Assembly: GCA_027923505.1 (NCBI GenBank)
Contig: BROI01000003.1
Coordinates: 868,001 to 932,000, forward strand
DNA: 64,000 bases
Direction of reading: 5' to 3'
DNA from: Mayamaea pseudoterrestris
Lineage: Eukaryota
Below, piece after piece: positions 14,732 through 62,648 of the stretch. The first letter of the stretch is position 1. Each line of letters starts with the position of its first letter. Position numbers and translations under genes: made by a program. Below the pieces are notes generated by a model that saw only the letters and a program-made list of their open reading frames with translations, had not been told where the DNA came from and searched no databases.

Positions 14732-14941
14732 AGGCAATACTGTGAAACGAGTGCCAGTGTCAATAAGGTCACAAGGCTATAATACGAAACAAGTGCCAGT
14801 GTCAATTACGCTAGAAGGCAATAATATGAAACGAGTGCCTGTGTCAATTACGTCATGAGGCAATAGTATGAAACGAGTGCCAGTGTCAATTACGTGGGAA
14901 GGCAATAGTACGAAACGACTGTTAATCTCAATTACGTCATG
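14732..14941. repeat. 42-bp tandem array, 5 units (family shared with 27.1 and 62.2 kb)
   Basis: Units start at 14732, 14774, 14816, 14858, 14900; consensus AGGCAATAGTATGAAACGAGTGCCAGTGTCAATTACGTCANN. Confidence 0.95.
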
Positions 14942-15162
14942 AAAAGTCATACCGGTACGCGAGGAGGTGGCATTCGCCTTTCCATTGCTGCATTTACGGG
15001 AGACTGTAGCTCCGTAGTAGCTTCTTCAGAGCTATTGCACAATTGATAATAAGAATTGCACCTTACAAATATTTTGTTTACTTCTTATAGCAATGAGTGT
15101 GAAGCGCGAGAATGGGCATCAAACCAGAAGGTCTTAAATTCACTTACTGAGTACAGAGTTTT

Positions 15163-15920
15163 TCACTCGTAAATCCAGCCGAACGAATGACTCTTGTAAT
15201 TTAAAAGCTCCGACTCGTCAAACCATAGTGCAATCTCCTTCTTGGCGTTCTCAACACTGTCGCTGCCATGGCAAATGTTGCGGCCAACTTCGAGGCAGAA
15301 ATCTCCACGAATCGTTCCAGGTGCACTCTCCAGTGGATTGGTTGCACCAAGCATCTTGCGTCCTGTCGATACTGCTTCTCGGCCTTCCCAAATCTAAACA
15401 CGAGACATTGAAGTTGGGTCAGGGAATCCGAAGCTGCTGCACGCTGTAACGACACTAACAACCAACATCAAGCAAACACATGAACCAACTTACCATACAC
15501 ACGACTGGACCACTAAGCATGTAATCTCTCAACTTCGGAAAGAAAGGTTTCTCAACCAAGTCCTTGTAATGTTCCTCCAGGAGCTCTTTAGAAGCTTGCT
15601 TTGTCTTTAAAGCGGCGAGCTTGTATCCCTTCGTTTCGAATCGCTGAATGATTTGTCCGACTAAACCACGCTGGACACCGTCGGGCTTGATCTGGAACCA
15701 TGCGATAGAAAAAACGTTAAGAAACATTACAAAAGTCATTAAAGCATCTGCAGTTTCGAAATATCTCTTGCATAAATGGCGGGTCGCATACCATAATGTA
15801 TGTTTGTTCTTCAGCCGCCGACATGCTGAGCGAGCTGCTTCCGCCTCGTACTCTTAATAGCGGAGTCGCGTGAAATGCCAGCGCCGACGTTACGAGTAAG
15901 CTCAATAGAAAGGATCTCAT
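15163..15920 (-). CDS. NDK: Nucleoside diphosphate kinase with bipartite presequence, 3 exons
   Basis: [42 protein letters not shown]; introns ~15791-15692 and 15493-15394; signal peptide ending ALA-FHA. Confidence 0.92.
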
Positions 15921-16051
15921 TATACTATAGATAGCTACGGCGTTGTAATGTACGGTCTGATGGGTCGCAGCGGATTTGTGAGAGGTGCCCATCCATCATC
16001 CGACTCTTCGTTGTTTGTGCGTCAGTGTTCCCGTTTGTGCAAGTCACCATT

Positions 16052-16069
16052 GGTCATGAGCTCATGACC
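16052..16069. promoter_or_regulatory. Perfect 18-bp palindrome in the divergent NDK/CDV3-like promoter
   Basis: GGTCATGAGCTCATGACC is its own reverse complement; regulatory role is inferred from position only. Confidence 0.4.
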
Positions 16070-16192
16070 CGAGAACCGCTCGTGGTTGCGAGGGGAGAAA
16101 CCACGATGACAAGAATCGGATCTGCATTGCATCGGTCGAGCTGACAATCATCCCTCCGTAGTTACTCCTCCTCTAATAAATACCGAGTCATC

Positions 16193-17247
16193 ATGTCTAA
16201 CGATACGGCAGCATTCTTTGCCAACAAGAAGAAGAAAAAGGGCTTCAAATTTAACGCTAATCTCGTCGATGCCGAGGCGCTCGCGCCTCAGAGTCATGTG
16301 TAAGTTCTTCCTGCTTTTTACGCAACTGCTCTTTATAGCAATATATTTATGCTCACGCTTCTATTAAATCCAAACTACATAATAGTGACGCTCCCGCAGT
16401 CTCGACTGATGGCAAGATTATGGCTGATGGAACAGCGTTTTCGGCTGATCCGTCGACCGTTTCCGTCAAGAAGCCTCAGCAGGATGAAGAATGGGACGAT
16501 GGTTTGGCTTCTGATTTCGCGCGCAAGGCGAATACCGCATCGGAAGCTACTGTGAGAGATATAAAGTCATTGGATGCCGGCAAGCATCATTCTGGAAACA
16601 TTGCGGAAAAGCTTCGTGTTGAGGAAACCAAGGCGGCTCTAGCGGCCGCGAGGGAAGGAATGGAACGAGAAGCGCGACTATTAAAGGAAAAGAAAGAAAC
16701 CGACGAAGCCAAGAAGCAGGAGGCAGCAACGCGTTTTTCGGGTGCATCGGCAACTGTTGGAGTTACGGCTAGCAAATGGACGCCGCCAAGTTTAGCCAGG
16801 GTCAAGTTGGGTGCTGCGAGTGCGACAAAGGGCGTCAATCGACGATTCAATGCGGAAGACGAAGAACTATTTCCAGATTTGGCTTCTGCTGATAAAATAA
16901 TAGAACAAAAGGAAAAGGAGCAGCAAAATGCATTCAGACCGCTCAAGAAAACGCCGGTCGGTGGAGGTGCCAGCTGGGCTAACAAGCCAACCTTGTCATC
17001 AACTATTAGAGCTGTCGCGCCAGAGTTCGAAACTGAAGCACCGGTCACATCTTATACAGAGAGTACTGCTCAAGGAGCTTCGCCAGACGAGTTGTCTGCT
17101 GCTGCTACTCCGTCACCAGCATCGACCACTGCTGCACCCATACTACCCGCCAGCGATACTTCTGGCTTCGCAGCATCTAGTACATCAAAGATTGCACCCG
17201 TCAAGAAAAAGAAGAAGGATCTATCAACATTCAAGCCCAAAGCCTAA
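16193..17247 (+). CDS. CDV3-like low-complexity protein, 2 exons
   Basis: N-terminus MSNDTAAFFANKKKKK, internal DEEWDD and ELFPDL motifs; intron 16300-16385 joins in frame. Confidence 0.55.
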
Positions 17248-17806
17248 TGTTAAATAAATGTTTCTTTGACGCTTACACACCGGTAGGATTTACTTGCATG
17301 TATCTGCGTTTTTCAGCGTACGTGTCCACCGACAATGTAGATGACGAAGTACTCGTACTCACAAATTGGAGAGTACATCTTGCTACCCAATAGGATAACT
17401 TGGTGCGCCTGGCTAAACACTTGCGCGTAAACTGCTTGACAATGATCGAAACCGCTGCAGCGGTATAGATAATGAACCATGCGCAGTAAGGATGATGCTC
17501 GCGCACCTCAGTTTCCTCGCCAACATGGCGCACCCTTTTAATGTCATGGCGCACCTCTTTAACATAGCATACGAAAATATAAGCGGCCGACCTTTCTTTT
17601 CGCGCACCCGACTGCGCTTAACGCAGGTGTTTCGGCCTCAACGCCTCGTGGTCTCCATTATTTGCGAGCCATTGCATGTTGTGCGCCAAAGCAAACATTC
17701 GGCTCAGTATTATCACAACACACTGTTCCAGTCGGTGCTCTTTATCACCGTTTCTTCGAGATTTCGATAACCTGTACCGCCGCATTTGTAAAGTCTAATC
17801 AGCGTC

Positions 17807-19099
17807 ATGAAGTTTTGGGCTGCTGGGTATGACGACCAGAAAAGTCCCGCGGCGGAATATCCTGAAGATCGACCATCGACTGAAATCTTTGAGTCCATCT
17901 TTGGCCGAAAAAAGCCTGCCTCACCGCGTCGCGTCCGATTTGACAAGTTTGTCATTCGTAAGGACAGCTTTGAAAAGGAACAAGTTGATGGAAATTCGGC
18001 ACAGCAAGCACCCAACTCATCCAGTCCACGAACGCCGCCGCATCATTCCCCTGTCGCCGTTAGCGAAAATGGCTCTCCGGTCTCACCACCACCAATGCTA
18101 CCATCTCTCCAGATGGCACGGCCAACGCGTATGTATAGTGAATTTCCGCAGCGGCCCAGTATTCCTCTTCGATCGGGTTCTAAACACGAGGACATCAGAG
18201 TCGAACCGTACAATCGCGCCGCGGCAATGGAGGAAGGCAAGCATCTTGAGCACATTGAACGGGTCGCCAAGCGCCGATTCTGGGCTGTAGTATGTATTGC
18301 AGTGCTATTAATGATTGGAATCATTCTTGCTGTCACACTCCCAAAGGTCAGAGATGCGGAGGAGACGACACATAATTTGACACGAAAGCGTAGCAAGGCA
18401 CCAGGTACCGCGGTTCCTACTCCGTCTAAGCCAGTTAACACTAGAGCCAGAGCCAAAAGCAAACACCAGTGCATTGCGAGGTTAACAGAGCTTTACAAGG
18501 CTGTTGACACGTACTTGGTGGACCCAACCAATTCGTCACGAGTTGCACGAACGTACGGCCATCCGATTGGGAGCTGGTGTTTCAACGAAACGCTCACTGA
18601 CATGACGGCCGTATTTTCGGCTCATCGCAACGAGTTAGCTGCCACCTTCAACGAAAATCTTTCTGAATGGGACGTATCTTACGTCAAAAATATGGGTTCA
18701 CTTTTCTATGGGGCAGCTTCCTTTAATCAACCTTTGCCTTGGAATGTCAGTCGAGTTTACAACATGGCAAATATGTTTCGCGGCGCGACAAGTTTCAACT
18801 CTGATATCAGCACATGGGATGTGTCTAATGTGATGGTGTTTGAGCGCATTTTTCAAAACGCCGTCTCATTTAATGTTGATATCTCAACCTGGAATCTGAG
18901 CTCGGCGCTCACCACACGGTCCATGTTCAAAGGAGCCACCAGTCTACGAAGAAACCTTTGCTCATTTGGTGCGACATTAAACAAGATTGCGGATGTCTCC
19001 AAAATGTTTGCTGATACGCCCAAGTGCAAGATCACTTCTCCAGATGCGCCAGTGTTGTCGGCTTCGTCCTACGGGCCGTTTTGCTTTCCATGCGCGTAG
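17807..19099 (+). CDS. Type II membrane protein with DUF285/BspA-like (WDVSxV..M..MF) repeats
   Basis: TM FWAVVCIAVLLMIGIILAVTL; repeats FNENLSEWDVSYVKNM, FNQPLPWNVSRVYNMANMF, FNSDISTWDVSNV. Confidence 0.85.
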   Translation: MKFWAAGYDDQKSPAAEYPEDRPSTEIFESIFGRKKPASPRRVRFDKFVIRKDSFEKEQVDGNSAQQAPNSSSPRTPPHHSPVAVSENGSPVSPPPMLPSLQMARPTRMYSEFPQRPSIPLRSGSKHEDIRVEPYNRAAAMEEGKHLEHIERVAKRRFWAVVCIAVLLMIGIILAVTLPKVRDAEETTHNLTRKRSKAPGTAVPTPSKPVNTRARAKSKHQCIARLTELYKAVDTYLVDPTNSSRVARTYGHPIGSWCFNETLTDMTAVFSAHRNELAATFNENLSEWDVSYVKNMGSLFYGAASFNQPLPWNVSRVYNMANMFRGATSFNSDISTWDVSNVMVFERIFQNAVSFNVDISTWNLSSALTTRSMFKGATSLRRNLCSFGATLNKIADVSKMFADTPKCKITSPDAPVLSASSYGPFCFPCA

Positions 19100-19457
19100 A
19101 AAGAGACAAGTCCACTACATCAATACATACCTTGAATATAAGTCGTGCGAGTGAATACTTAGCTGCATCTTACATGTGACTTATCAGCAAAGTGCATTGC
19201 ATAATGTACGAATAGGCAGTACGGTCAGGGCATAAAGAGTAAGCTAAGACCTATCGCAGGCTCCCGCGCCGTGCCCAGCTTTTCGTTGCCGACCATCATG
19301 ACGAATCTCGGCCTCCGCCAAATAATGGCGACAAATACGAAATCAAATAACTATATATCGCGCCTTGACGCGCACCGGCAGTAAGAGCACCTATACACGT
19401 GGATGTCGCAGCGTCGCATTTCAGCAATCTTACTTGGCGACAGTTGTACACCACCAA

Positions 19458-21718
19458 TTACGATGATGCCTTTCGATGGCCGAGCGCCTTGTGAAAGATG
19501 TCAATGCCAGTCTCGAGATTCCTCCAGCTGGTCGGGAATTCCCGAGCCCAAAAGGATTGCTTGACTGGGACAAACGACTGCATCTGATCGAAGCGATCTT
19601 CCATAACATAATACCAACTAGGAATTATGCCATTCTCGTGGCCCAGATATTTGTCCTGAGTCGCATGGTATCCTCGCATTCGGTTGATGAACCCCTATCG
19701 TGGGCAGAATCATAAAAGCAATGAGTGAAACGTAGCAAGCATGGAGTTTCTGGCAAAGTACTACGACTTACCGTGAATGTAGAGAACCAGCAACCAAAAA
19801 AGTACCTTCCTCTAGATGCTACCAGCTGATCGATCATGCCGTACTGCAGATAAGCGAAGTGAGAGATAAACCAATGCCACGGAAGATGCCCGCAAGTTTG
19901 CACAGCACTGACTTACGTAGTTTGTGTTGACGTCGCCCAACTCTGCGAGCAAGTCATCCATGAAAACAGTATTGTAATGATCAGAAAGCACTTTAAAAAA
20001 CGATTTGTCGCGTTCGTCCGTGGCAATGTACACCGTCGCTCCCTCGGCAAATGTGCGTTTTGTCACTGAGTATATCGCGTCTGCGTCTACTCGCGTCATT
20101 TTGTACTGGAAATCACCCCGTCGGATGTGCATCGTATCAAACAGTCCCTCGGAATTTGTCGCGTTTCGTTCCCGTGCTCGCTTTCGAATGGCCGTGACGA
20201 GTCTTGCGGCAGCACATTGGATCTCATCGATGTAGCGCATATGGTCGCGCATGAAACGCTTCAACCATAAATCGTGGTGCCAGTCCTGCAACGAGAAGAT
20301 ACAAGAAGTTGAGAGTAGTCAAAACTGCCATCTGCTACTTGGAAGTCAAATACCTGAAAGAACAAAAAGGCGTAAAAGTGTACTGACACCCCACAATAAC
20401 ATGCAGATTGCGTGAGCAAATGAAAGGTTTGGTAAAGCAAACGTTCGATAAACTTGACGAATTGACTCACCAAGTAAACGTCCACCTGGTTCGTTCTGAA
20501 TGGCTGCAAAGTGCACCAGCGTTGAATCCTGCATGGTCTGATCATAGATACAAAGCTGCCTGCGACCAGCCCGCATTTCTTTCATGCGTTCCATCGACGA
20601 CGAGTCTACGGGTATTGGTTTCCCAACGTAGTCTTCCCAACTGAATGGTATACCAAAGAAATCATGAGATTGAATGATACTCCTTCAGCCTAATTACAAC
20701 AGGCTCATTTGACGACTACATACATTGGCAGTCCCTCAGTCTGAACGGTCGCATTCAATTCTAGTATGTGAGCCATGTCTTCCTTGCTCGTCGACGACGG
20801 GAAGGCAGCCATGCAGGTGTCTGGATCCCACTTGGCCACGATACCGACTTGGCGCAGATATGGGTAGATGACTTCTGGCTCTCCGTCAAAATTGGTCCTG
20901 TTTGTCCCGGGTGGAAGGAGAATTTTACCATTGTCATCGCGAAATCGACCTGCAAGTGCCTCGCGTCGAATAAACTCGTCCATAGAGATAATATCAATGC
21001 CTGGATGCTCTTCGTGAATTGCTTGCATGTGGAAAAAGTGAGAGAAAGAGAACTTGTTGCGTTGGCCATTTTTTTGCGCGCCAATGAGATACATTTTGCT
21101 CTCTGGTGGCTGTGTAAATGGAGGATTCGATCAGTTCATCCGACGACAAATACTCGGAAAACGATACCCAAATCGCTTACCAGTACCAAAGTGCGTCCCA
21201 TTGCAAAAGCGAGGGCGACTACTGTCTCCATGCCCTGTAGAGAAAAAAGCCGTGAGCAGTAGCCGTAGTTGCAGATTGCAGACGAGAGGTTCATGAAATA
21301 CACGAAGGCCCAAAACGATGCAGAAATCGCATAGACATACACAGCAGACTCTTACCATTCGAATATTGTTCCATCCTCCAAAATCCGGTTCAAACGTCAG
21401 ATACTGCACACTGCCACCATTTCGACGAAAGGGAGAAAGGTGTTGACTGTCGGCCGGAATGTCACGCCAATACACCATTTCCTTGGCTTCTGCATCGGGC
21501 GGACCGCCATACTTTCGACAAGACAGTCCAGCCAATTGATTCTTGTTGCTTTTGCTACTGCTGCTTTGCAAAAAGCCATCCAATGCGGCAGCTGGAGCCG
21601 CCAAGTTGCTTGCCCCTGTTGTTGCTGCCAAAATGGTCGGATCAAGTTTGCCATTCAAGAATAGCGTCAGCATAGCGAATATACATAATACAATTAAGAA
21701 ATAGTTGGCAAGCTGCAT
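19458..21718 (-). CDS. GDP-fucose protein O-fucosyltransferase family protein, multi-exon
   Basis: Type II anchor MQLANYFLIVLCIF; YLTFEPDFGGWNNIRM, HIRRGDF, VYIATD motifs spread over several ORF fragments separated by GT..AG introns. Confidence 0.8.
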
Positions 21719-21962
21719 TATGACTGCGATTGTACGCTTGCGATGAGCAGAAGAGGATGGTTCGAATATGGTCAAATGAATGATGGCAGTCGCTAGCAAT
21801 CGTTGCTGTGGAAAATGAGTTTCGGTGCGACTCTTGGGTAACGCTACGACACTTTCAGAGCATGAAATTCACCGTCGACCCGATTCAGCAAACATCGACC
21901 GCCTGTTGTCCAAAGTCCTTTTATGTACACGCACATTACAACAGATACATAACAATTACACC

Positions 21963-22865
21963 ATGGCAAATAGAACTGACCCACTCGCGAATGTTATTTC
22001 AGGAACGGACCCGCAAAATCTTATGGAATACATTACTCGGCAGAAAATTTACGATTCTCGCTACTGGAAGGAAGATTGCTTTGGAATCAATGTTGCCGAC
22101 GTTTTAACCAAAGCAGCCCAGTTGGAATGCGTTGGAAACTTGCCGACCAAATTTTTGAGTCTAGTTTTGAAGCTTTTGCAGCTGCAGCCTGAAATGGAGC
22201 TAATATTGGAAACGTTTGTGGAGCAGGAGCAGTTCAAATACGCGCGAGCGCTTGGTGCTGTGTATTTGCGGCTGACGGGCCGACCATTAGAGATATATCA
22301 AGCGCTCGAGCCGCTTTACAAGGACTATCGTAAGCTACGAGTCTGGAACAACCTGACGCAAGAGTGGTCCATACTGCACATGGACGAGTGGATTCATCAG
22401 TTGCTTCGCGAGACGCACATTTTGGGAATCGCCTTGCCTAGACTTGCGAATCGACGGACGCTTGTTGAATCAGCCTATCTACCTGATGGACCGCGACAGA
22501 CCACACTTGAGAACCTTTTGACGGAGCATGGAGGGCCGTTAGAGTATCTGAAGCATAAAGTGCAGGTGGAAAAGAGTGAGGCGGCGCGTGTTGCCTGGGA
22601 CGAAAGGAATTGTCGACTTGGTAAATATGATATTGCAGCGACGAGGGATGCATCAAACGAAGAGGAGACCGACGAAAAAGATCAAGAGAAACCAAAGAAG
22701 AAGAGGAAAAAGACGATTGAGGCAAAATACGACGCGCTCTTCAAGTCAAGCAAGAAGCCAGCCACAGTACCAATAAATAAATTTGTGACGAAGGATGATG
22801 TAAAGGACGATGCGTATTGGGACGACGAACGAGCAAAGCTTGGACTCAAACCGTTAAAGAAGTAA
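21963..22865 (+). CDS. PRP38: Pre-mRNA splicing factor Prp38
   Basis: MANRTDP...GTDPQNLMEYITRQKIYDSRYWKEDCFG; FKYARALGAVYLRL; C-terminal RAKLGLKPLK. Confidence 0.92.
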   Translation: MANRTDPLANVISGTDPQNLMEYITRQKIYDSRYWKEDCFGINVADVLTKAAQLECVGNLPTKFLSLVLKLLQLQPEMELILETFVEQEQFKYARALGAVYLRLTGRPLEIYQALEPLYKDYRKLRVWNNLTQEWSILHMDEWIHQLLRETHILGIALPRLANRRTLVESAYLPDGPRQTTLENLLTEHGGPLEYLKHKVQVEKSEAARVAWDERNCRLGKYDIAATRDASNEEETDEKDQEKPKKKRKKTIEAKYDALFKSSKKPATVPINKFVTKDDVKDDAYWDDERAKLGLKPLKK

Positions 22866-22913
22866 TCAATAATACTATAATCATTATATCACATTAAGTC
22901 AGTAGCAAACTCG

Positions 22914-24638: not shown

Positions 24639-25000
24639 TACTCTTCAAAACTATTACAAACTTAGCTTGTCGATGGCCTCACCAGAGCGATGGCGTTGCT
24701 TGGCGCAACAAATAATTCACGTCGACGAATACAATCGGTCTGACTCATCAGCACGTTTATCATTTGTGACAAGTTTAATATTGCCCTTGACTTGACACGA
24801 GTGGCGAGAGATTTAGACTTATTTTTTCAATGACGGAGTACTTTTAGGATCCCTGCTTTGTTTGCATTGGCAATGAGCGTAAATTTGACGTTAGAATTAC
24901 GGAATATGTATTGAGCCAACCACTAACAAGGCGTACTACAATTAAATGAGTGAAAAATGTTTCTGCACACCAAAAGGCTGTACTTGTGATGACTGAGAGT

Positions 25001-26959
25001 TTAAGCAAGGTTTCGCCAAGGGCCCTGTGGAAAGACATCATCAGGGAGCTCAATGTAGTGGCGGAATGCATTGTTTGTGAATTGATCGCCAGTCTCCTCA
25101 TCGTCGACGAACACAAATGCATGCTGTGGAACATTCCTGAGGTACATGGCTGTACCCGTCGTCGTATCTTCATACTTGAGAGTATATAAAACCTTGCCGC
25201 CACTTGCTCCATTGTCAGTTCTCTCCAAGATAATTGGCTCCACCAGAACGCTGCTCGTGTACAGTGTTTGATCATTTGGTTCCGAGAATATGTAGGGATT
25301 CTCTTTTGATCCATCACCCAACGAGCCATCGTCGTTAGACATGGCAAATACTTTCAGTAATATCCCCGACGGATATGGATTACTTTGCTGTTCATCTTCC
25401 GTGCGCAAGTGTTCCTTCTCCAACTCGGTGTTCAAATCAGACGCGCGGAGCGGCCATGTTCCGGCAACTTGCTTGCCTGTCAGCTCATTCACATATTTCT
25501 TGGCATGCTCATCCCAGGCATCCTTCCAACGCTTGCCGTAGTTAATGGTGATCTCCTCACCTTCAGCAATGTCGCGCAAGGCGACAATGTCAATGACGAG
25601 TCCAATCGATTGGTCGTGCAGCAGTTCAGAGGGTGAGACTTTAAAATACTTGTCTGTATGCAACGGGTGCTTGGACCACTGCATTCTCGCATTGGGCTCT
25701 GGGCTATGATTGATCAAATTGACGTTAGAGCCCATTGGGATAAAACCCATGGTTGATTCCGGATGCGAGTAAATGTAATTCATCAGTAGCTGTTTTCCGC
25801 GAAGGAGTTGATCCTCTTGACGGTACATGACGCCGTTTTCATCCTCGGCTAGCTCATACATGTTTAGGGTCAACTTGTCGGTCAACAAAAGCGGGGTAGG
25901 AGCGACAAGCCCACCTTGCTGAATCTTGCGGTTAGCAAACGCCCCGCGACCAGCATTTGGTATATTAGAAGGACCAGCTCGAATGTTATCCATGCACATG
26001 CCATTTGCGGCAAGCCACTCTAGAGGCTTGGATCGTGCCGCAGTCAATTTTGACGTTTGGCTATACTTCTCAATGCCTCCTGCCTTTTTGACGTACGCTA
26101 AGCCACTTGGATGTGCTGGTAACAGAGCTTCGATCAGTTTCGCTTTGACAGGACCAACAGCGGCCTCCAAAAAGTCATCCGTCATGAAGCGGTAGATTTG
26201 CAGCTTGCCGCTCTCGTCAACTGCCTGGTCATGCTTCTGAAAAAACTCGAGTAGCTGGTCGACCGTCTGATCAATGCGTGTGTAGTCCTCCTGGCCCAGA
26301 GTGTCAACCTCATCGTCATCGTCGTCATCCTCTTCTTCTTCCTTGTCGTGCTCGTCGTTCACCGTGCCGTAATTGAGAATTATTTCATCTCCAGGTTTAA
26401 CGTCCTTTGTCGCCAGCAAAATCTGATTGTAGAAAGGACTGGTGGCTCCTCGTCCAGGATGCGCTTGGCCAGGAGCCTCACCAACTGTGACTCGTTGATA
26501 GCTGGCGCGCACGTCAAAGTATGCATTGTCTGACTTGGTGTTAAAGTCTGCAAGCAATCCTGCACCAGGAATAATGACGGCGCCACTATCCTCCTCGTCA
26601 AACTCATCTCCGGCACCAGCAATCGCGGGCTGCCATGTGTTGTGGATGAGTGAATCTGCAATGGCGAGTAGATAATCATGCTCAACTTCATCCTCATCGG
26701 GGTCCTCCGTATTGTGCGCTCGTAAGGCGTGCAAGTTAATGGCAACATCTGGAGAACCAATCGCGTCGTTCTTACTATAATCTTTGCCAGCGTACATACC
26801 CCATTGAGAAAAGGAGTCCGCGGATGTCCGGCGAGGATTGCTGGAAGGAGCGAGATAGAGACCGCATGTTAAGGTCGGTTGATCGGCATCAGTGTCAAGA
26901 TTTCCGTGTGCGGTTTGCGCAACCAAAGTAGCCACGACGAGTACTACCAGCGCATTCAT
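25001..26959 (-). CDS. Signal-peptide tandem SET-domain methyltransferase (diatom BacSET-like)
   Basis: Signal peptide MNALVVLVVATLVAQTAHG; SET1 WGMYAG...ATKDVKPGDEIILNYG; SET2 AGRGAFA...LINHSPEPN...ALRDIAEGEEITINYG. Confidence 0.85.
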   Translation of the reverse strand: MNALVVLVVATLVAQTAHGNLDTDADQPTLTCGLYLAPSSNPRRTSADSFSQWGMYAGKDYSKNDAIGSPDVAINLHALRAHNTEDPDEDEVEHDYLLAIADSLIHNTWQPAIAGAGDEFDEEDSGAVIIPGAGLLADFNTKSDNAYFDVRASYQRVTVGEAPGQAHPGRGATSPFYNQILLATKDVKPGDEIILNYGTVNDEHDKEEEEDDDDDDEVDTLGQEDYTRIDQTVDQLLEFFQKHDQAVDESGKLQIYRFMTDDFLEAAVGPVKAKLIEALLPAHPSGLAYVKKAGGIEKYSQTSKLTAARSKPLEWLAANGMCMDNIRAGPSNIPNAGRGAFANRKIQQGGLVAPTPLLLTDKLTLNMYELAEDENGVMYRQEDQLLRGKQLLMNYIYSHPESTMGFIPMGSNVNLINHSPEPNARMQWSKHPLHTDKYFKVSPSELLHDQSIGLVIDIVALRDIAEGEEITINYGKRWKDAWDEHAKKYVNELTGKQVAGTWPLRASDLNTELEKEHLRTEDEQQSNPYPSGILLKVFAMSNDDGSLGDGSKENPYIFSEPNDQTLYTSSVLVEPIILERTDNGASGGKVLYTLKYEDTTTGTAMYLRNVPQHAFVFVDDEETGDQFTNNAFRHYIELPDDVFPQGPWRNLA

Positions 26960-27105
26960 AATGTTGTTTAAAGCCTTCAATAGACTCTTAAATGCAAAGA
27001 CGTGGACAGAGGATTAAATTCTGGTGATGGTAGGAGGTGCAAGTGCCACCAGTTTGGCGAGGCGTCGGTGGCAGTGGAAGCCGCACCATCAACGAGCACG
27101 TTTTG

Positions 27106-27302
27106 AGTTTTCACTGGCACTCGTTTCAGGCATATTTAATGTGACGCAGTTATCACTGGCACCCGTTTCAGGCGTAACTGTTGTGACGCAGTTATCACTG
27201 GCACCCGTTTCAGGCATATATATTGTGACGCAGTTCTCACTGGCACTTGTTTCAGGCATACTAAGAGTGACGCAGTTTTCACTGGCACTTGTTTCAGGCA
27301 TA
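27106..27302. repeat. 42-bp tandem array, ~4.7 units (variant of the family)
   Basis: Units at 27141, 27183, 27225, 27267 plus a partial at 27106; GTGACGCAGTTNTCACTGGCACYYGTTTCAGGCRTA + 6 variable nt. Confidence 0.95.
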
Positions 27303-27480
27303 ATTCTTTCAGAAGCACGGTCGTAAGGAACCTCTGATCCAAGAAACGTGACGACAATGGCGGTCATCGAGCGGCTGCGCCGAGTTGAGCACGACGAAGC
27401 TTCCACTGCAGCAGTCTGTATCATAACTACAACACTTCATTGGAGGCTTCATTGAATCGACCAAATATCTTACTGGAGTC

Positions 27481-28898
27481 ATGGTTTTAACTGATCGACA
27501 GCGGTCCGATCTGCACGCTGGCATATTCGAGTACCTCAAGAGTCGACCAGGCGATGCGTTTGCCAAGGTGGCCGATGCATTGCGAGAGGCTGACCCATCG
27601 ATACACGACACTTTGAATGGAAGTAGTAATGGGAGTAGCAAGTCCTCGACGCCCTTGTTGGAGAAGAAATGGACGGCGATTCCTCGACTGCAAAAAAAGG
27701 TGCTTGAATTGGAACGAACGCTGGCACAATCCGCAAAAATTCACGCGCATCGAACCGGCTTGGACGAAGCGACAGGAACAGCTCGACGAATGCTACCAAG
27801 GCAACCTTGCAACTACAAACTAGCGGGTCATTCGCAGGTTGTAACAGCCGTTGCTTTACATCCAGTCTTCACCATGGTGGCGAGTGGATCCGAAGATGGA
27901 ACCATCAAGGTATGCAATGCACATGAATGAGATGCAGAATGGAAATGAATGAATCTAAGTATCATGTCACTGACTACATATTCAATTTGCCTCTCCAGCT
28001 CTGGGACCACGAGAGTGGGGAATATATGCGGACCCTGAAAGGTCATACGAACACTGTCAATTCCGTCACCTTCACACCTCGCGGCACGCACTTGGCGTCC
28101 TGCAGTACTGATTTATCCATTAAACTTTTTGACATGCAAACATTCTCCTGCGTCAGAACATTGAGAGGCCATGATCATACTATTTCATGTATTCGATTTT
28201 TACCATCGCTTGAAGTGGAACAATCAGGCGGAACGGCCACGACGGAATCCACCACGACTGGCTTGACGGCGGCGGCTGCTGGGTGTAGACAATTAATCTC
28301 GGCATCAAGGGACACAACTGTGAAACTTTGGGATGTTGAAACTGGGTTTTGCGACCATACATTTACGGATCATTCGGATTGGGTACGGTGCTTGGCGGTT
28401 CGGCAGTGTGATGGGAGTCTTTGGGCGTCATCGGGAAATGATACTGTCATTAATGTTTACAGCAACCACCGAAATAAAGTGGTGGACCTACGAGGCCATG
28501 AACATGTTGTTGAGACGTTGGCTTTTATCACGGAGGATGCGCTCAAGGGAATCGGTCGAGACTCCAAGCACACTGAACTGGTTAGGGATTATTTGGCGTC
28601 TGGTTCGCGAGACCGTACAGTAAGGCTATGGAAGCTTTCTGAAGCATCTTGTCTGGCCGTTTTTAAAGCACACGAGAATTGGGTGCGGAGCGTGGTAATT
28701 CATCCTAGTGGCAATTACGTCATCAGTTCATCCGATGACAAGACAATTCGCGTGTTTGACATCAAAAACAATAGATGCTTACGGACGCTGGAGAAGGCGC
28801 ATGACCATTTCGTAACGTGCCTCGATATGCATAGCACGTTGCCGGTTCTCGTATCTGGAGGAGTTGATCAGGTGGTCCGGTGCTGGATGCTGGATTGA
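27481..28898 (+). CDS. LIS1: Lissencephaly-1 homolog (LisH, coiled coil, WD40), 2 exons
   Basis: [41 protein letters not shown]40 repeats; intron 27910-27998. Confidence 0.92.
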
Positions 28899-48224: not shown

Positions 48225-48473
48225 CTAATTGTCGCCCTTGACCTTCTTCAAAGCATCCTCAAACTTTTCATCCTTCTCGGCAGCATCAAACATGCTAAAC
48301 ATTTCTCCCAAGTCAAGGTCAAGTCCGCCTTCATCGTCGTCGCTTGGCGCTGGTTCAGAAAACAGTCGCATTGATATACGCGCACTACCAGTAGCCGGCA
48401 AAGGTACCACCGTGAACGCCGAAGCGCTTGATACGAGCATTGTCAATACGACTACTACACTAGTGGACTTCAT
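48225..48473 (-). CDS. Small hypothetical plastid protein, copy 2
   Basis: Two amino-acid differences from copy 1, both in the presequence. Confidence 0.7.
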   Translation of the reverse strand: MKSTSVVVVLTMLVSSASAFTVVPLPATGSARISMRLFSEPAPSDDDEGGLDLDLGEMFSMFDAAEKDEKFEDALKKVKGDN

Positions 48474-48733
48474 TGTACTGGTCTTGTGGTAGTGGTGATA
48501 AGGTTCCTGTTGACTGTGAGTTGGGTGAGTGATGGGTGATGGGACGTGAGCCTGACGAGTCACTGCGCGCCCCGCGGCGCTTCAACTTCTGCGTCATGCA
48601 TGTCGCAGCGACACAAGACATCATGACTGTCACAAATGGTACAAGTACGTAGTAGTGCTTGTCGTTGTGCTAACCTTTGCTCGCAAAAAGGTACCTTTAG
48701 AATTTAATTATATGCATTATGTAATAAAGGCGC

Positions 48734-49756: not shown

Positions 49757-50080
49757 GATGACACAACGTAGATAATGACAATGCAATGCAAGTAATTGCA
49801 AATTGCAGCGAATGCGCAATGCGATGAGCGAAGGCGCCCGATGTTCTTCGAACAAGGGCTACTATAGCCTCTTTTGGCGTCCGTTCGGCGGCCGTTTCTT
49901 ACTCATGCGTTCGTTAAAAATTTCGCAGAATAAGGTCGAACTGTACTCGTTGCGTGCCACGCTCCCATTTACAAACGCCGCGAAGTAACAAGTGTCATGA
50001 CCGGCCAACGAGATTTTTGGGAAGTCGTCACAAATCGACCGCGAGTCACACCCACACCGACCTTTCTTCTCCTATACCAA

Positions 50081-54843: not shown

Positions 54844-56469
<1,626 letters not shown>

Positions 56470-57528: not shown

Positions 57529-57580
57529 AACGCTAACTTATCCACCAGTAAGAAAATAATAGAGCTTGCTACTTTAGACG

Positions 57581-58804: not shown

Positions 58805-60508
58805 ATGCAGCGATCGCCGTGCATTAACGTATGTTTTCAACCCTTGACAAGGATGCGCTGGTTGAGTTTATTTTTAATTCCGCTCTCAACAATTCGCCAA
58901 ACGACAGCCTTTACCTTTGTACGTCAGTCGTCTCCTTTTAAATCGACGTTTCCGTCAAATGCCGAGACGTCGACATGCCTATCATCAGCATCAACAGCAA
59001 ACAATCTGCAATCTCTTGCACAAGATCTCAACGACGCCTTGGCTGGTTGCCAAGCTGATTTGACGCGCACCTGCCATGTTCGCGTCGCAGCAATTGACAA
59101 TGCCGATGGAATTGCCTATCGACTCGGCATGGTTGCAACGCGCGACTTGAAAGCTGGCGAAACCGTGCTGCAAATGCCTTTTGATGAAAGATTTATGTTG
59201 ACGGCTGACGTTGCACGTAAATACGTCTTATCGCCAACATTGCATGCGAGTGACAGCAGCACTAATTTTGACGAATACACTGGCTGGACCGGAGACGCTG
59301 GTTTGATTGCCCTGCAGCTGCTGCAGGAATTGGCCCGCGCATCTGGTGTGTACGATAGCGCATCAATCAATAAACATTTGCCAGTCCGAGACGCGAGCCT
59401 GCAAGCTTTTATGAATCGCTGGGTGATGGCCTTGCCCACAACGCGCGAGCTGAGCAAGCATCATCCATTATTGTGGCCGGAAGAGGATCAAGAAATCTTG
59501 CAGTCATCGTCGACCAACAAAATTTATCGGCGACTTGATGACTTGGAGGAAGATTTTGGTTGGCTCGCGGAAAATATCTTTGTCAAGCATCGGAAGCAGT
59601 ATCCCGAAGCAGTGGTGGCAGCGAATGGCGAAACAATGGATTGTTTCAACCTCAAAGGATTCAAGTGGGCACTGGCCAATACACTGTCGCGCACGGTCTT
59701 TGTAGATGGCGCGTTGCGGTTATTGCCGATTTTCGATTTCTTCAATCACCATGACGAGGACGGTAAGGAGGTGGAGCTAGGATACATGGGCGCCTTTAAA
59801 ACCATGAAAGGCGCGCAGGTTGCCGTACCAGTACGCTGTCGAGCCGGTGAGCAGGTTTTTTGCTCGTATGGTCCAAAAAGCGCCGCCGAGTACTTGCTTG
59901 AGCATGGTTTTTGTTCAAAGCAGGCTTTAAAGACAGCCGTCGCGGAAGTTACATTGGAGCTAGATCCGGACGATCGATTCTACGACGACAAGCTTGATAT
60001 ATTGGAATTTGAAACGTACGACCAAGCTCCTATGGACCCGGTCCAGAAATTTGACCTCATTAGTGCTCCTGGACGTGATGGAGATCCCGATCCGGCCATG
60101 ATACAGTTTGTAAGGCTTTGCAAGCTTGGAGGTGCCGACGCTTTCTTACTGGAATCCATTTTTCGGAAAGAGGCTTGGGATTTCATGGCATTGCCAGTCT
60201 CGGAGGCCAACGAGCTTCAAGTCATCAATGCCGTGACAGCGGTCTGCCAAGCAGCACTCGATGAATTCGACACATGTTCTGAAGGTGGACCTGAAATATG
60301 TACCAAAATTAGACAGCTAGAACGAAAAGCGCTTTCTGGCACTATGGAGTACTTGCTGAGAGAAAAGGAGGCGCTGGATTTGAAAGAATACTACCAACAA
60401 AGGCGGCTCAAAGATTTGGGTCTTGATAGTCCATGGACACCTGAGGATGACCCCGACATTGGCTATGGGCAAACGAGAGCACCGGGTAGTGCCGATTACG
60501 ACTGGTAG
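58805..60508 (+). CDS. Plastid Rubisco LSMT-type SET methyltransferase
   Basis: TTA-FTF presequence; LGMVATRDL, LPIFDFFNH, GEQVFCSYG, LLEHGF; DRFYDDKLDILE in the substrate-binding domain. Confidence 0.88.
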   Translation: MQRSPCINVCFQPLTRMRWLSLFLIPLSTIRQTTAFTFVRQSSPFKSTFPSNAETSTCLSSASTANNLQSLAQDLNDALAGCQADLTRTCHVRVAAIDNADGIAYRLGMVATRDLKAGETVLQMPFDERFMLTADVARKYVLSPTLHASDSSTNFDEYTGWTGDAGLIALQLLQELARASGVYDSASINKHLPVRDASLQAFMNRWVMALPTTRELSKHHPLLWPEEDQEILQSSSTNKIYRRLDDLEEDFGWLAENIFVKHRKQYPEAVVAANGETMDCFNLKGFKWALANTLSRTVFVDGALRLLPIFDFFNHHDEDGKEVELGYMGAFKTMKGAQVAVPVRCRAGEQVFCSYGPKSAAEYLLEHGFCSKQALKTAVAEVTLELDPDDRFYDDKLDILEFETYDQAPMDPVQKFDLISAPGRDGDPDPAMIQFVRLCKLGGADAFLLESIFRKEAWDFMALPVSEANELQVINAVTAVCQAALDEFDTCSEGGPEICTKIRQLERKALSGTMEYLLREKEALDLKEYYQQRRLKDLGLDSPWTPEDDPDIGYGQTRAPGSADYDW

Positions 60509-60533
60509 ATATTTTCATCTATTTATTTGCTGA

Positions 60534-62123
60534 TTACGCTTCTTGTAAGTTAGTGATGCGGCCGTCGACGAGTGGTTCAATAGCAAATTGATCAATGCTG
60601 TCATCATGCAGAGCTCGTTCAAACATGTTCGCAGCTTTTTGTAATGCCGAAGTGGTAAGGCCTTCCCATTGGCGCACCACTGAAAGTTCCGTAAAATAGT
60701 TTCGTACCAACGTCGGAAGCGGTGGGCAAAGTTCGTCGTCAAGAATAATTGGTGCACCTAGAAACGCATCATAACCATCCTTACCCGCAAGCAAGTACGT
60801 TTTCGTGACGACATGATATGTCTTGTTCAGATCAATAGCCTCAAATATAATACCGTCCCCATTACGAGAAGAAGCATGGTACTCTTCCCCGCGTCGATGG
60901 ACTAAATGGTCCACTCGCTTTCTCACAAAGACGGATCCGTCCACCACGCGAGATCCGGCTGGACGGCTGGGATCAAACTTGAATCGAATTCCGTCGACGC
61001 ATGGAAATCTACCTTCCATGGCTGGGTATTGCGATACACCATTCTCCAGTGCTGCGACAAGCTTGAAGCCCGTAAGAGCAACAACTGCAACTGGATCAGC
61101 AACCGGTAGCAAATCACATAAATCCTGTACCTTGAGTATACCTTTGTGAATCATGCGATCTGCTCGAATGGAGCCAGAGTTGAGGATCGTGACATCGGCG
61201 TTGGTCGCATGAGTCAAAATGGATGCAAAAAAGTTCGATATATTGGTTTCCTTGGTTCTAATTTCGGAGAAGCGGGCATCCAAATCCACTTTCGTAGAGC
61301 CAATGATTATCTCCATGTTCTTGGCAGCTTCGTCACTAAAATGCCGAACAATCTCGGCAGTGGCAGCATCCTCCTCCATGTCCTTGGTGATTGTGACTCG
61401 CTGCGTCGACAAATCATCCTTGGCGTTAACCTTGACAAGCGTAAAGTCGCTAAAATCCGATCCCGAGTTCAAAATATGAAGGTGATTTATGATCGTATCT
61501 TCGTAATGATGGTCATGTCCGCCAAGGATAATGTCAATCAATTCTCCGCATTGTTCCGCCAAGACGTAATCGTTGGGCATTCGCATGTGGCTCGCCGCAA
61601 TCACCATGTCAAAGGGACCTTGTTCCTGAGTGATCTCCGGCACTCGTCACTTAACATAGTCAGAAAATTCTTCAAACTCAATGTCATCCGGTTCCACGCC
61701 GCAAAGCGTTTCAATCCATCCATACTCGATCAAGCCAATTACCAGAAACCTTAGTCCTTTTCTTTCTATAATGACGAATTCCTCGCAGCCTCCAAGAGGT
61801 TGATTATCATCAACGGATCGAACGTTGCTGCAAATCCACGGAAAGTTGCAGACTGCCTTGAGGTGACCGAATTCCACCAAGCCAAAATCTAAGTCGTGGT
61901 TTCCAAGACAAGCGCAATCAATCTTGAGCGCATTCAATATTGGAATCATTTGCATACCCCTCAAGCTGGTCGAAAGGCTTGAAGGAGAAAATGCATCACC
62001 CGAAAAGATGGTGAGACAAGGGCAGCCATCAGCATCGCTCTGTGCGGCTCGAACAGCGGCGATGAAGCGAGGCGACTTTTCCACATTGTACAAGTCATTA
62101 AAATGAATTAAAGTTGTGTTCAT
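60534..62123 (-). pseudogene. 5'-nucleotidase/apyrase family gene with one in-frame TGA (61647-61649)
   Basis: HFNDLY, FSGDAF, LGNHDLDFG, SHM, ILGGHDH, LNSGSIR; both ORFs lie in one frame: GAC TAT GTT AAG TGA CGA GTG CCG. Pseudogene status is not established. Confidence 0.7.
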
Positions 62124-62235
62124 CGTATGAGTATCTTGTGCTATCGCAGGTAACTAAATGCAGTATGCTTGTCAACTTACGCAATTTGCTGTGGCTGATG
62201 TCGGCAAATTATTGACCGCATCAAACGGAGCTTTC

Positions 62236-62648
62236 TGCCTTGTGACGTAATTGACATTGGCACTCGTTGCGTATTATTGCCTTGTGACGTCATTGACACT
62301 GGCACTCGTTGCGTACTATCGCCTTGTGACGTAATTGACACTGGCACTCGTTTCTTACTATTGCCTTGTTACGTAGTTTTCACTGGCACTCGTTTCATGC
62401 TATTGCCTTGTGACGCTGTTTTCACTGGCACTCGTTTCATAATAATGCCTGATGACGCAGTTTTCACTGGCACTTGTTTCATACTATTGCCTGATGACGC
62501 AGTTTTCACTGGCATCCGTTTCATGCTATTGCCTTGTGACGCTGTTTTCACTGGCATTCGTTTCATACTATTGCCTGATGACGTTATTGACACTGGCACT
62601 CGTTTCGTACTATTGCCTGGTGACGTTTTTGACACTGGCACTCGTTTC
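62236..62648. repeat. 42-bp tandem array, ~10 units
   Basis: Units every 42 nt from 62236; consensus TGCCTTGTGACG-N7-CACTGGCACTCGTTTC-ATACTAT. Confidence 0.97.

What the first reader, a model, noticed from the sequence alone, without database searches (positions are those of the whole stretch)
14732..62648. Dispersed family of promoter-proximal 42-bp modular tandem arrays
Seen: three arrays (14732-14941, 27106-27302, 62236-62648) share an exact 42-bp period with no indels and the core CACTGGCACTCGTTTC plus TGACG. All are intergenic and end about 110-160 bp upstream of a start codon (RRM gene, SET gene, 5'-nucleotidase), in either orientation. I saw no shared flanks, TIRs or TSDs. Each unit alternates conserved blocks with AT-rich variable linkers. 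Known: 42 bp is four helical turns, and TGACG(T) is the bZIP/CRE core also bound by stramenopile aureochromes. Inference: a helically phased multi-site protein-binding or chromatin element, or the internal minisatellite of an unrecognised non-autonomous mobile element. Three copies in 64 kb suggests many more genome-wide.
Basis: partly seen in the sequence, partly recalled or inferred. Interest (0 to 1): 0.8.

Follow-up and report, generated by a model that had tools for sequence, protein, structure and literature searches.

The report
Abundant dispersed 42-bp minisatellite family in a diatom
Three spacers between genes in this diatom-like genome carry arrays of one exact 42-base repeat that is very abundant elsewhere in the genome, with an unchanging 16-base core and a bZIP-type TGACG box, so it may bind proteins, though no function is shown.

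Summary
Three intergenic arrays (about 14718-14941, 27106-27302, 62236-62648) have an exact 42-bp period with 0% indels. The 16-nt core occurs 19 times in them, against 0.7 expected in the whole window.

No flanks, TIRs or TSDs are shared. The proximal edges lie 113-179 bp from four start codons.

New here:
- **Abundance.** More than 1,000 contigs in each of two DNA runs match the arrays. The depth excess suggests roughly 100-150 kb, or 2,500-3,500 units, genome-wide (crude).
- **Modular conservation.** In the A/C subfamily the core differs from consensus at 4.7% of positions, the TGACG box at 6.7% and the 14-nt linker at 14.3%. The B subfamily has an unalignable linker of the same length.
- **Box sequence.** It reads TGACGT 8 times and TGACGC 8 times, which is the diatom 'TGACGT/C' bZIP motif.

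Best reading: a dispersed euchromatic minisatellite family (near certain) whose units are phased composite protein-binding sites (about 0.4, inferred). A selfish or neutral satellite and a decayed mobile-element origin remain open. With three loci in a compact genome, promoter proximity cannot be told from chance. No description was found in print. I rate it a new member of a known kind, of moderate interest.

The parts
14718..14941 (-). Array A: about 5 units of 42 bp, with the core on the - strand. Units 2-4 are intact and both end units are degenerate. An 84-bp higher-order period is also scored. It lies between the NDK-like gene stop (15163-15165) and the RRM gene ATG (14571).
27106..27302 (+). 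Array B: 4.7 units of 42 bp. This is a separate subfamily with the same core and TGACGCAG box but a different 14-nt linker. It lies between the divergent SET gene (ATG 26959, -) and the LIS1-like WD40 gene (ATG 27481, +).
62236..62648 (+). Array C: 9.8 units of 42 bp of the same subfamily as A. It has a 126-bp (3-unit) higher-order repeat, with units 4-6 resembling units 7-9, and a degenerate tail to about 62670. It lies between the 5'-nucleotidase ATG (62123, -) and the stop of the RsmB/F-type methyltransferase gene (63163-63165, -).
12154..14571 (-). RRM-domain gene. Its ATG is 147-161 bp from array A. The core strand of the array is the gene's own strand.
15163..15958 (-). Nucleoside-diphosphate-kinase-like gene, named from reading the translation rather than from a Pfam test. 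It has two 100-bp introns (15394-15493 and 15692-15791) that are skipped in X4 and X5 contigs. Its stop is 222 bp from array A.
25001..26959 (-). SET-domain gene. Its in-frame ATG at 26959 is 147 bp from array B.
27481..28898 (+). LIS1-like WD40 gene, made of ORF 27481-27930 plus ORF 27927-28898 and presumably joined by an intron. Its ATG is 179 bp from array B.
60534..62123 (-). 5'-nucleotidase gene. The C-terminal domain is a Pfam hit, and the N-terminal ORF shows metallophosphoesterase-like motifs by eye. Its ATG at 62123 is 113 bp from array C, and the array core is on the opposite strand.
63163..63999 (-). 3' part of an RsmB/F (NSUN-type) RNA methyltransferase gene. Its stop is about 515 bp from array C.

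Best explanation
The three arrays belong to one abundant, dispersed minisatellite (short satellite-DNA) family of a pennate-diatom-like nuclear genome. The unit is a fixed 42-bp module made of four parts:
- a nearly invariant 16-bp core (CACTGGCACTCGTTTC);
- a 14-bp linker whose length is fixed but whose sequence differs between subfamilies;
- a TGACG(T/C) box;
- a short tail with an invariant TT.

Shown here: the family exists, is exact in period, is present at three unrelated loci in intergenic spacers, is highly repeated elsewhere in the genome, grows in place by multi-unit duplication (84- and 126-bp higher-order periods), and has decayed edges.

Inferred: the two conserved blocks at fixed spacing are a composite protein-binding site. 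The box would bind a bZIP factor of the 'TGACGT/C' or aureo-box type, and the 16-bp core an unidentified factor. Because 42 bp is four helical turns, each array would present 4-10 such sites on one face of the DNA, directly upstream of core promoters. It would then act as a multi-site regulatory or chromatin platform (enhancer-like or boundary-like).

Spread is most simply explained by reinsertion of array fragments (extrachromosomal circles or ectopic recombination, as proposed for beetle euchromatic satellites) rather than by a transposon with defined ends.

I put the identity as a dispersed minisatellite family at about 0.95. The confidence below is for the binding-platform mechanism.
For: Exact period and chance control.

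No shared flanks. The arrays are the only dispersed repeat in the window (27 array-array HSPs and one unrelated 2.25-kb duplication).

Genome-wide abundance:
- 1185 contigs (X1) and 1607 contigs (X2) laid at 80% likeness or more, while only a few dozen are needed for the 13 kb of unique DNA.
- Array bins reach depth 590-1930 (X1) and 12,000-42,600 (X2), against about 12.7 and about 200 in single-copy bins.
- At 14840, 82 and 84 contigs carry the family's consensus base rather than this copy's variant.
- Loose ends leaving the arrays are heterogeneous (agreement 0.45-0.67), as expected for many different flanks.

Modular constraint:
- In the 12 intact A/C units, mismatches to consensus are core 9/192, TGACG box 4/60, linker 24/168 and tail 26/84. 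Core against linker gives Fisher p=0.002.
- The A/C consensus differs from B at 9/14 linker positions against 4/28 elsewhere, p=0.003.
- In one search table 5c, five inserts from other genomic copies bridge a core end to a TGACG start. Four imply a 14-nt linker of yet other sequence, and one implies 15.

Period constraint: 78 mismatches to the subfamily consensus with 0 indels. In the flanking unique DNA, the eight listed X2 pieces show 17 gaps to 63 substitutions (table 8).

Box identity: 8 TGACGT and 8 TGACGC, which matches the 'TGACGT/C' target of PtbZIP11 and the aureo box TGACGT (PMC11142338 and PMC4937327, passages read). PMC4937327 also notes multiple such motifs at fixed distances in diatom promoters.

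No single-strand structure (z from -1.2 to +1.3) and no Rfam family, which argues against an RNA or hairpin role.
Against: There are no binding, accessibility or expression data.

Only three loci have context. Their promoter proximity is what a compact genome forces on any tolerated insertion.

The core strand is the same as the downstream gene at A but opposite at C, so orientation is inconsistent.

The neighbouring genes (RRM protein, SET, LIS1-like, 5'-nucleotidase) share no obvious theme.

Half of the boxes (TGACGC) lack the ACGT core that aureochromes recognise, and TGACG is a short motif (3.5 per kb in the rest of the window).

The units are not independent, because duplicated blocks share changes, so the Fisher tests overstate significance.

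Other genomic copies were found through their likeness to the core, which biases towards seeing a conserved core.

A conserved core could equally serve propagation or recombination rather than gene regulation.

The copy-number estimate rests on summed contig depth, which the tool itself warns is not a copy number. Part of the excess could come from one or a few long arrays elsewhere.
Confidence: 0.4

Rival explanations
1. This is a selfish or neutral euchromatic satellite. The arrays spread by reinsertion of extrachromosomal circles or by ectopic recombination and persist only where they do no harm, in non-transcribed spacers beyond the core promoter. The conserved core reflects what the spreading or homogenising machinery needs (for example a nick, recombination or replication-start site) or recent common ancestry. 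It does not reflect gene regulation.
For: The arrays start and end in different phases of the unit and have decayed edges. Expansion in place is by multi-unit blocks (periods 84 and 126; C4 matches C7 at 40/42). A and C units are as alike between arrays (0.80) as within them (0.82), which fits seeding from a common heterogeneous pool. Copy number is high. Orientation relative to genes is inconsistent. Close precedents exist in print: Tribolium Cast satellites in gene-rich regions, with eccDNA and mobile elements proposed as vehicles (PMC11610590, passages read).
Against: It does not by itself explain why the linker keeps its length while its sequence is replaced, why the TGACG box is held as well as the core, or why no indel is seen among 78 substitutions.
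Confidence: 0.35
2. The arrays are the internal minisatellite of a non-autonomous mobile element (Helitron/Helentron-, MITE- or foldback-like) whose terminal sequences have decayed or are too short to see in three copies. Its insertion preference for open promoter chromatin explains the position.
For: Dispersed satellite-like arrays carried by Helentron-type non-autonomous elements are known (PMC7492417, search listing and start of abstract only). Non-autonomous elements and MITEs are annotated in a model diatom (PMC5859163, passages read). The family is abundant and dispersed. A degraded copia-type RT fragment shows that mobile elements are present in the window, though it is not near any array.
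Against: Outside the arrays, 3 of 3 loci share nothing longer than 10-14 nt at E of 1.2 or more within 600 bp on either side. No TIR pair is common to the loci; the best is an 11-nt pair around B only, and about 0.1 such pairs are expected per kb-sized region. No TSD was seen on reading the junctions. The arrays begin and end in different phases. Loose ends of other genomic copies are heterogeneous (table 7).
Confidence: 0.15
3. This is a core-sharing recombinogenic minisatellite in the sense of Jeffreys. The 16-bp core would be a recombination-initiating or hotspot motif that generates arrays de novo at many sites.
For: A shared core with a variable remainder of the unit at unrelated loci. 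Unequal-exchange signatures in the form of higher-order periods.
Against: Unit length is constant at 42 bp at all three loci and in 4 of 5 other copies seen (table 5c), unlike core-sharing minisatellites, whose unit lengths differ (recalled, not checked in a paper). A second conserved block, the TGACG box, is not needed by this model. Hypervariability could not be tested because contigs break at the arrays.
Confidence: 0.07

Closest known systems
Euchromatic dispersed satellite DNAs of the beetle Tribolium castaneum (Cast1-9, TCAST1). PMC11610590: passages read. PMC4537270 and PMC3411249: search listing and start of abstract only.
   Same: Short tandem arrays of one family are scattered through gene-rich DNA without obligatory mobile-element flanks. 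Spread is proposed via eccDNA or mobile elements. An influence on neighbouring genes has been proposed, and for TCAST1 reported after heat stress.
   Different: The beetle units are about 170-360 bp, with a large heterochromatic reservoir. Here the unit is 42 bp, exact in period, and has a modular core-linker-box layout. No heterochromatic reservoir is known, and the organism is a diatom.
bZIP sites of diatoms: the aureo box TGACGT (PMC4937327) and the CO2/cAMP-responsive 'TGACGT/C' elements bound by PtbZIP11 (PMC11142338, citing Ohno et al. 2012). Passages read for both.
   Same: The second conserved block of every unit is TGACGT or TGACGC. There are several copies within about 100-600 bp upstream of start codons. 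Multiple motifs at fixed distances have been noted in diatom promoters.
   Different: The known elements are 2-6 motifs in unique promoter sequence, often on both strands as inverted pairs. Here 4-10 same-strand copies sit in a satellite-like repeat, each coupled to a 16-bp core of unknown meaning. Binding has not been tested.
Satellite-like arrays carried by Helentron/Helitron-type non-autonomous elements (Pacific oyster, PMC7492417: listing and start of abstract only)
   Same: Short satellite-like arrays are dispersed genome-wide.
   Different: Those arrays sit between conserved element ends. None were found here in 3 of 3 loci.
Core-sharing hypervariable minisatellites of vertebrates (Jeffreys and co-workers, 1985; recalled, no paper seen)
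   Same: Many unlinked minisatellite loci share a short core while the rest of the unit varies.
   Different: Their unit length varies between loci and the core is G-rich. Here the length is fixed at 42 bp and there are two conserved blocks.

Membership tests
Dispersed euchromatic minisatellite / short satellite-DNA family | Head-to-tail units of constant period | tested here: met
   Period 42 with 0% indels in three arrays. Core starts are exactly 42 bp apart.
Dispersed euchromatic minisatellite / short satellite-DNA family | Several unlinked loci with unrelated flanks | tested here: met
   Three loci spread over 48 kb. Nothing is shared outside the arrays within 600 bp on either side. Loose ends of other genomic copies are heterogeneous (table 7).
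Dispersed euchromatic minisatellite / short satellite-DNA family | High copy number in the genome | tested here: met
   1185 and 1607 contigs were laid. Array depth is 60-200 times single copy, and 550-730 copy equivalents cover position 14840. The estimate of 100-150 kb is crude, and the split between many short arrays and a few long ones is unknown.
Dispersed euchromatic minisatellite / short satellite-DNA family | Growth in place by unequal exchange (higher-order repeats, decayed edges) | tested here: met
   Periods of 84 bp in A and 126 bp in C score above 42. C4 and C7 match at 40/42, and terminal units are degenerate.
Non-autonomous mobile element with internal array (MITE, Helitron/Helentron, foldback) | Conserved terminal sequences flanking the array in different copies | tested here: not met
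   blastn-short of the three arrays with 600 bp of flank on each side gives only 10-14-nt matches at E of 1.2 or more outside the arrays.
Non-autonomous mobile element with internal array (MITE, Helitron/Helentron, foldback) | Terminal inverted repeats, or a 3' hairpin, at the element ends | tested here: not met
   No inverted pair is common to the loci. The best is an 11-nt pair around B only, which is within chance. A Helitron-style 3' hairpin with CTRR end was not scanned for separately.
Non-autonomous mobile element with internal array (MITE, Helitron/Helentron, foldback) | Target-site duplication | tested here: inconclusive
   None was seen on reading the junctions. The array edges are degenerate, so the true junctions are uncertain.
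bZIP (aureo box / TGACGT/C CO2-cAMP element) cis-regulatory site | Presence of the TGACGT or TGACGC motif upstream of a gene | tested here: met
   There are 8 TGACGT and 8 TGACGC in 834 bp of arrays, 113-179 bp and further from four ATGs.
bZIP (aureo box / TGACGT/C CO2-cAMP element) cis-regulatory site | ACGT core or palindromic context as recognised by aureochromes | tested here: inconclusive
   Only 8 of 16 boxes contain ACGT. One full TGACGTCA is present.
bZIP (aureo box / TGACGT/C CO2-cAMP element) cis-regulatory site | Binding by a bZIP protein and an effect on transcription | not testable with these tools
   Needs EMSA, DAP-seq or ChIP, and reporter assays.
Core-sharing (Jeffreys-type) hypervariable minisatellites | Shared short core with a variable rest of the unit | tested here: met
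   The core is conserved and the linker is replaced between the A/C and B subfamilies.
Core-sharing (Jeffreys-type) hypervariable minisatellites | Unit length differs between loci; copy number is hypervariable between individuals | tested here: not met
   Unit length is 42 bp at all three loci. Copy-number variation could not be read because contigs of X1 and X2 stop at the array edges (table 8).

The most novel reading that the evidence does not exclude
The 42-bp unit is a diatom-specific, helically phased composite regulatory module. An unknown factor reads the 16-bp core and a bZIP factor of the CO2/cAMP or blue-light (aureochrome) pathways reads the TGACG(T/C) box, held 14 bp apart. Arrays of it have been seeded at hundreds of promoters without a transposon, wiring many unrelated genes into one environmental regulon or insulating neighbours in a very compact genome.
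Probability: 0.15. Interest if true: 0.8.

Novelty: new member of a known kind. Interest (0 to 1): 0.5.

Why it matters
Diatom promoters and their long-range control are poorly understood, and the few known cis-elements are single short motifs.

This family would supply thousands of phased copies of a bZIP-type box coupled to a long invariant core, sitting next to gene starts. That would make it a ready-made handle for three things:
- finding the factor that reads the core;
- testing whether repeat number tunes expression;
- engineering promoters.

If it proves inert, it is still a clean case of a satellite spreading through gene-rich DNA in a compact protist genome without recognisable transposon ends. 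That bears on how satellites move.

Tried and rejected
- **Whole genome.** None is held for this window, so no genome-wide placement test was possible.
- **Metagenome scan with the 16-mer.** All are single chance matches. None of the 117 has the 42-nt unit at up to 12 substitutions, and one (L021) has a second core-like site 894 bp away.
- **Two-core pattern in prokaryote genomes and viral contigs.** It gave 17 loci and 1 locus. The automated check flagged 2 of the 18 (L120, L135). I read L120, L121, L129, L130 and L135. They are unrelated repeats, apparently bacterial or phage coding repeats, sharing only the searched letters.
- **Earlier findings of this scan.** Nothing by place, by sequence or by words.
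- **Literature.** The core string and its complement gave 6 irrelevant papers. Searches for diatom with tandem repeat, 42 bp, minisatellite or satellite DNA found no description of this family. PMC10833087 and PMC8147415 hold no relevant passage. Supplements were not opened. Repeat libraries in the supplements of diatom genome papers might list this family.
- **Single-strand folding.** Three-unit stretches gave z from -1.2 to +1.3, so there is no structure.
- **Rfam over the whole window.** No match.
- **CpG depletion as a sign of methylation.** Arrays give 1.14, 0.76 and 1.09 against 1.10 for the window, which is not informative.
- **Coding repeat.** Frames are open through A and C only because the unit lacks stops in some frames. 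B is closed in the corresponding - strand frame (read by eye, no call). There is no Pfam hit for 62369-62878(-).
- **Expression.** No RNA holder is listed. X4 and X5 are not on record as RNA. Their contigs skip two 100-bp segments with CT..AC ends that X1 and X2 contigs run through, so they look like transcript assemblies. On them the array bins show no excess depth (4-21, against 4-64 on neighbouring genes). I take this only as a weak hint that most arrays lie outside mature transcripts, because contig depth is a poor measure and contigs cannot show absence.
- **Copy-number variation between runs.** It could not be read because listed contigs end at the array edges.
- **Taxon.** The Atlas search was not decisive. 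The named homologues of the PRP38 ORF are raphid pennate diatoms at 47-54% identity. That supports 'diatom-like' and no more.
Full report
**1. The observation**

Tandem Repeats Finder reports three arrays with period 42 and 0% indels. They lie at 14731-14942 (5.0 copies, 80% matches), 27106-27302 (4.7 copies, 87%) and 62236-62648 (9.8 copies, 87%). These are the only period-42 rows among 27 rows. Multiples of 84 bp (array A) and 126 bp (array C) score even higher.

Laid in register, successive core starts are exactly 42 bp apart in all three arrays. The core CACTGGCACTCGTTTC with up to 3 mismatches is found 20 times in the window. Nineteen hits are in the arrays: 8 exact, 9 with one mismatch and 2 with two. 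The other is a 3-mismatch hit at 40720. Dinucleotide-preserving shuffles give a mean of 0.70 and at most 4, and 0 of 100 reach 20.

There are no isolated single units in the window. A self-comparison of the whole window finds only array-to-array matches (27 HSPs) and one unrelated 2.25-kb duplication.

**2. Anatomy of the unit**

Registered at the core, the 16 intact units are nearly invariant at three places: positions 1-16 (core), 31-35 (TGACG) and 39-40 (TT). Positions 17-30 (linker), 36-38 and 41-42 vary.

Arrays A and C carry the same unit type. Their units are as alike between arrays (mean 0.80) as within them (0.82 and 0.82). The best partner of A2 is C8, at 39/42.

Array B is a separate subfamily (0.85 within; 0.58 and 0.65 to A and C). 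It has the same core and box, but its 14-nt linker matches the A/C linker at only 5 of 14 positions. Counted across the unit, that is 9 of 14 linker mismatches against 4 of 28 elsewhere (Fisher p=0.003).

Within the 12 intact A/C units, mismatches to consensus are as follows:

| Block | Mismatches | Share |
|---|---|---|
| Core (1-16) | 9/192 | 4.7% |
| TGACG box (31-35) | 4/60 | 6.7% |
| Linker (17-30) | 24/168 | 14.3% |
| Tail (36-42) | 26/84 | 31% |

Core against linker gives p=0.002. The units are not independent, because duplicated blocks share changes, so these p-values are generous.

Other features:
- The box reads TGACGT 8 times and TGACGC 8 times.
- Terminal units are degenerate, and the three arrays begin and end in different phases of the unit.
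- In C, units 4-6 are repeated as units 7-9, with C4 and C7 matching at 40/42. The arrays therefore grow in place by multi-unit duplication.
- Among 78 mismatches to the subfamily consensus there is not one indel.
- In the neighbouring unique DNA, the eight listed pieces of run X2 differ from the window by 63 substitutions and 17 gaps (table 8). Indels are therefore not rare in this genome, and the period looks constrained.

**3. Surroundings**

The window is a gene-dense eukaryotic stretch with 48.5% G+C. The named homologues of its PRP38 ORF are raphid pennate diatoms (Fistulifera, Amphora, Nitzschia, Cylindrotheca) at 47-54% identity, and unnamed ones reach 72%. This supports 'diatom-like' and no more.

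- **Array A** lies between the stop of an NDK-like gene on the - strand (15163-15165, 222 bp away) and the ATG of an RRM gene (14571, 147-161 bp away).
- **Array B** lies between divergent genes. One is a SET gene (in-frame ATG at 26959, 147 bp away). The other is a LIS1-like WD40 gene (ATG 27481, 179 bp away).
- **Array C** lies between the ATG of a 5'-nucleotidase gene (62123, 113 bp away) and the stop of an RsmB/F-type methyltransferase gene (63163, about 515 bp away).

All three arrays thus adjoin a gene start at 113-179 bp. I do not regard this as evidence of targeting, for three reasons:
- By ORF ends, convergent spacers in this window are only 26-229 bp. Any tolerated intergenic insertion must therefore lie in a spacer with a promoter, within a few hundred bp of an ATG.
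- Three loci give no statistical power.
- The core strand agrees with the downstream gene at A and opposes it at C.

**4. Mobile-element hallmarks**

With 600 bp of flank on each side, the three loci share only 10-14-nt matches outside the arrays, at E of 1.2 or more. No inverted-repeat pair is common to them. The best is an 11-nt perfect pair around B only, which is within chance. I saw no target-site duplication on reading the junctions, although the decayed edges make the junctions uncertain. A degraded copia-type reverse-transcriptase fragment lies at 45497-47202, far from any array.

**5. Genome-wide abundance**

No genome is held, so I laid the contigs of four public runs on 14400-27600 at 80% likeness or more.

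X1 and X2 behave as DNA, because their contigs run through introns. 1185 contigs of X1 and 1607 of X2 were laid, far more than the few dozen that 13 kb of unique sequence needs.

| Run | Single-copy bins | Bins holding A and B |
|---|---|---|
| X1 | about 12.7 | 590, 1930 and 569 |
| X2 | about 200 | 12,497, 42,575 and 12,017 |

At position 14840, 82 contigs (X1) and 84 contigs (X2) carry the family's consensus base instead of this copy's variant. Summed depth there equals about 550 and 730 single copies.

Summing the excess over the four array bins and dividing by the single-copy depth gives about 105 kb for X1 and 147 kb for X2, or about 2,500-3,500 units. This is my own arithmetic. The tool warns that summed contig depth is not a copy number, so I treat the figure as an order of magnitude. 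It cannot tell many short arrays from a few long ones.

Loose ends leaving the arrays are heterogeneous (agreement 0.45-0.67, table 7), as many different flanks would give.

Table 5c shows other genomic copies in which the same core and the same TGACG start are joined by yet other linkers. Of five such inserts, four imply a 14-nt linker and one implies 15.

X2 comes from another study and differs from the window by about 1% in unique DNA. Its contigs end inside A (from 14913) and inside B (to 27158). Both arrays are therefore present at the same places there.

**6. Other searches**

- The 16-mer scan of metagenome contigs gave 117 single chance matches, none with the unit.
- The two-core pattern in prokaryote genomes and viral contigs gave 18 loci, all unrelated repeats sharing only the searched letters.
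- Rfam gives nothing in the window.
- Three-unit stretches fold no better than shuffles as single strands.
- CpG observed/expected in the arrays (1.14, 0.76, 1.09) does not differ consistently from the window (1.10).
- X4 and X5 are not on record as RNA. Their contigs skip two 100-bp segments with GT..AG ends on the - strand, so they look like transcript assemblies. On them the arrays show no excess depth. I take this only as a weak hint that most arrays lie outside mature transcripts.

**7. What it is and how it may work**

The identity is secure. This is a dispersed, abundant minisatellite (short satellite) family with an exact 42-bp modular unit.

For mechanism, the features that call for explanation are these:
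- two blocks are held while the linker between them is replaced but keeps its length;
- indels are absent;
- the period is constant across subfamilies and loci.

The simplest reading is a composite protein-binding site with a spacing constraint, repeated every four helical turns so that all sites face one side of the DNA.

The box equals the 'TGACGT/C' motif reported as the target of PtbZIP11 in CO2/cAMP-responsive diatom promoters (PMC11142338, passages). It also equals the aureo box TGACGT (PMC4937327, abstract and passages). The same paper remarks on several such motifs at fixed distances in diatom promoters. The 16-bp core matches nothing I could test.

I put this binding-platform reading at about 0.4.

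The main rival (0.35) is a selfish or neutral satellite that spreads by circles or ectopic recombination and survives only in harmless spacer positions. In that case the conserved core would serve spread or homogenisation. Arbitrary end phases, decayed edges, intermixed A and C units, inconsistent orientation and the beetle precedent (PMC11610590, passages) all fit it. The two readings are not exclusive.

A decayed mobile-element origin (0.15) lacks any hallmark in three loci. A Jeffreys-type recombinogenic core (0.07) does not fit the constant unit length.

**8. Comparison and novelty**

The closest known kinds are:
- euchromatic dispersed satellites (Tribolium Cast and TCAST1);
- satellite-like arrays inside Helentron-type elements (PMC7492417, listing only);
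- core-sharing minisatellites (recalled);
- diatom bZIP elements.

The family passes the tests for a dispersed minisatellite family. It fails the tested hallmarks of an element-borne array. It meets only the motif-level criterion of a bZIP element.

I found no description of this repeat in print (searches; PMC5859163 passages list 'unclassified repeats' and MITEs in a model diatom without sequences; supplements not opened). I file it as a new member of a known kind.

Its unusual features are the exact short period and the core-linker-box modularity. Interest is moderate (0.5).

Noticed in passing
window 43008-45234 and 47494-49744; 45497-47202: A 2.25-kb direct duplication at 94% identity. Each copy holds a thioredoxin-like/fn3 gene (44224-45258 and 48734-49855, - strand). 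The copies flank a degraded copia-type reverse-transcriptase fragment (RVT_2, E=1.5e-9 and 1.3e-3). This may be a duplication linked to a retroelement insertion.
   Followed up: partly
window 4564-6555 (-): A 663-aa ORF with a bZIP_1 domain (E=5.9e-8) lies 8 kb from array A. There is no evidence linking it to the TGACG boxes.
   Followed up: no
window 15394-15493 and 15692-15791: Two introns of exactly 100 bp (GT..AG on the - strand) in the NDK-like gene. They are skipped in contigs of runs X4 and X5 but present in X1 and X2.
   Followed up: partly
window 25001-26959, 40923-42785, 58805-60508: Three SET-domain genes lie within 64 kb. One has a Rubisco-LSMT substrate-binding domain.
   Followed up: no
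window 29127-32348 (-) and 32609-34423 (+): Divergently arranged leishmanolysin (peptidase M8) paralogues.
   Followed up: no
window 62369-62932 (-) and 62199-62657 (+): Long open frames run through array C only because the unit lacks stop codons in those frames. There is no Pfam match. A gene caller could mistake them for repeat proteins.
   Followed up: partly
window 17807-19099 (+): A 430-aa ORF with DUF285 repeats (E=2.8e-36).
   Followed up: no
L135 about 1620-2170 (viral contig), L121, L129/L130 (prokaryote MAG contigs): Unrelated 21- or 42-bp tandem repeats, apparently coding, were picked up by the two-core pattern. They share only the searched letters with the diatom unit.
   Followed up: partly
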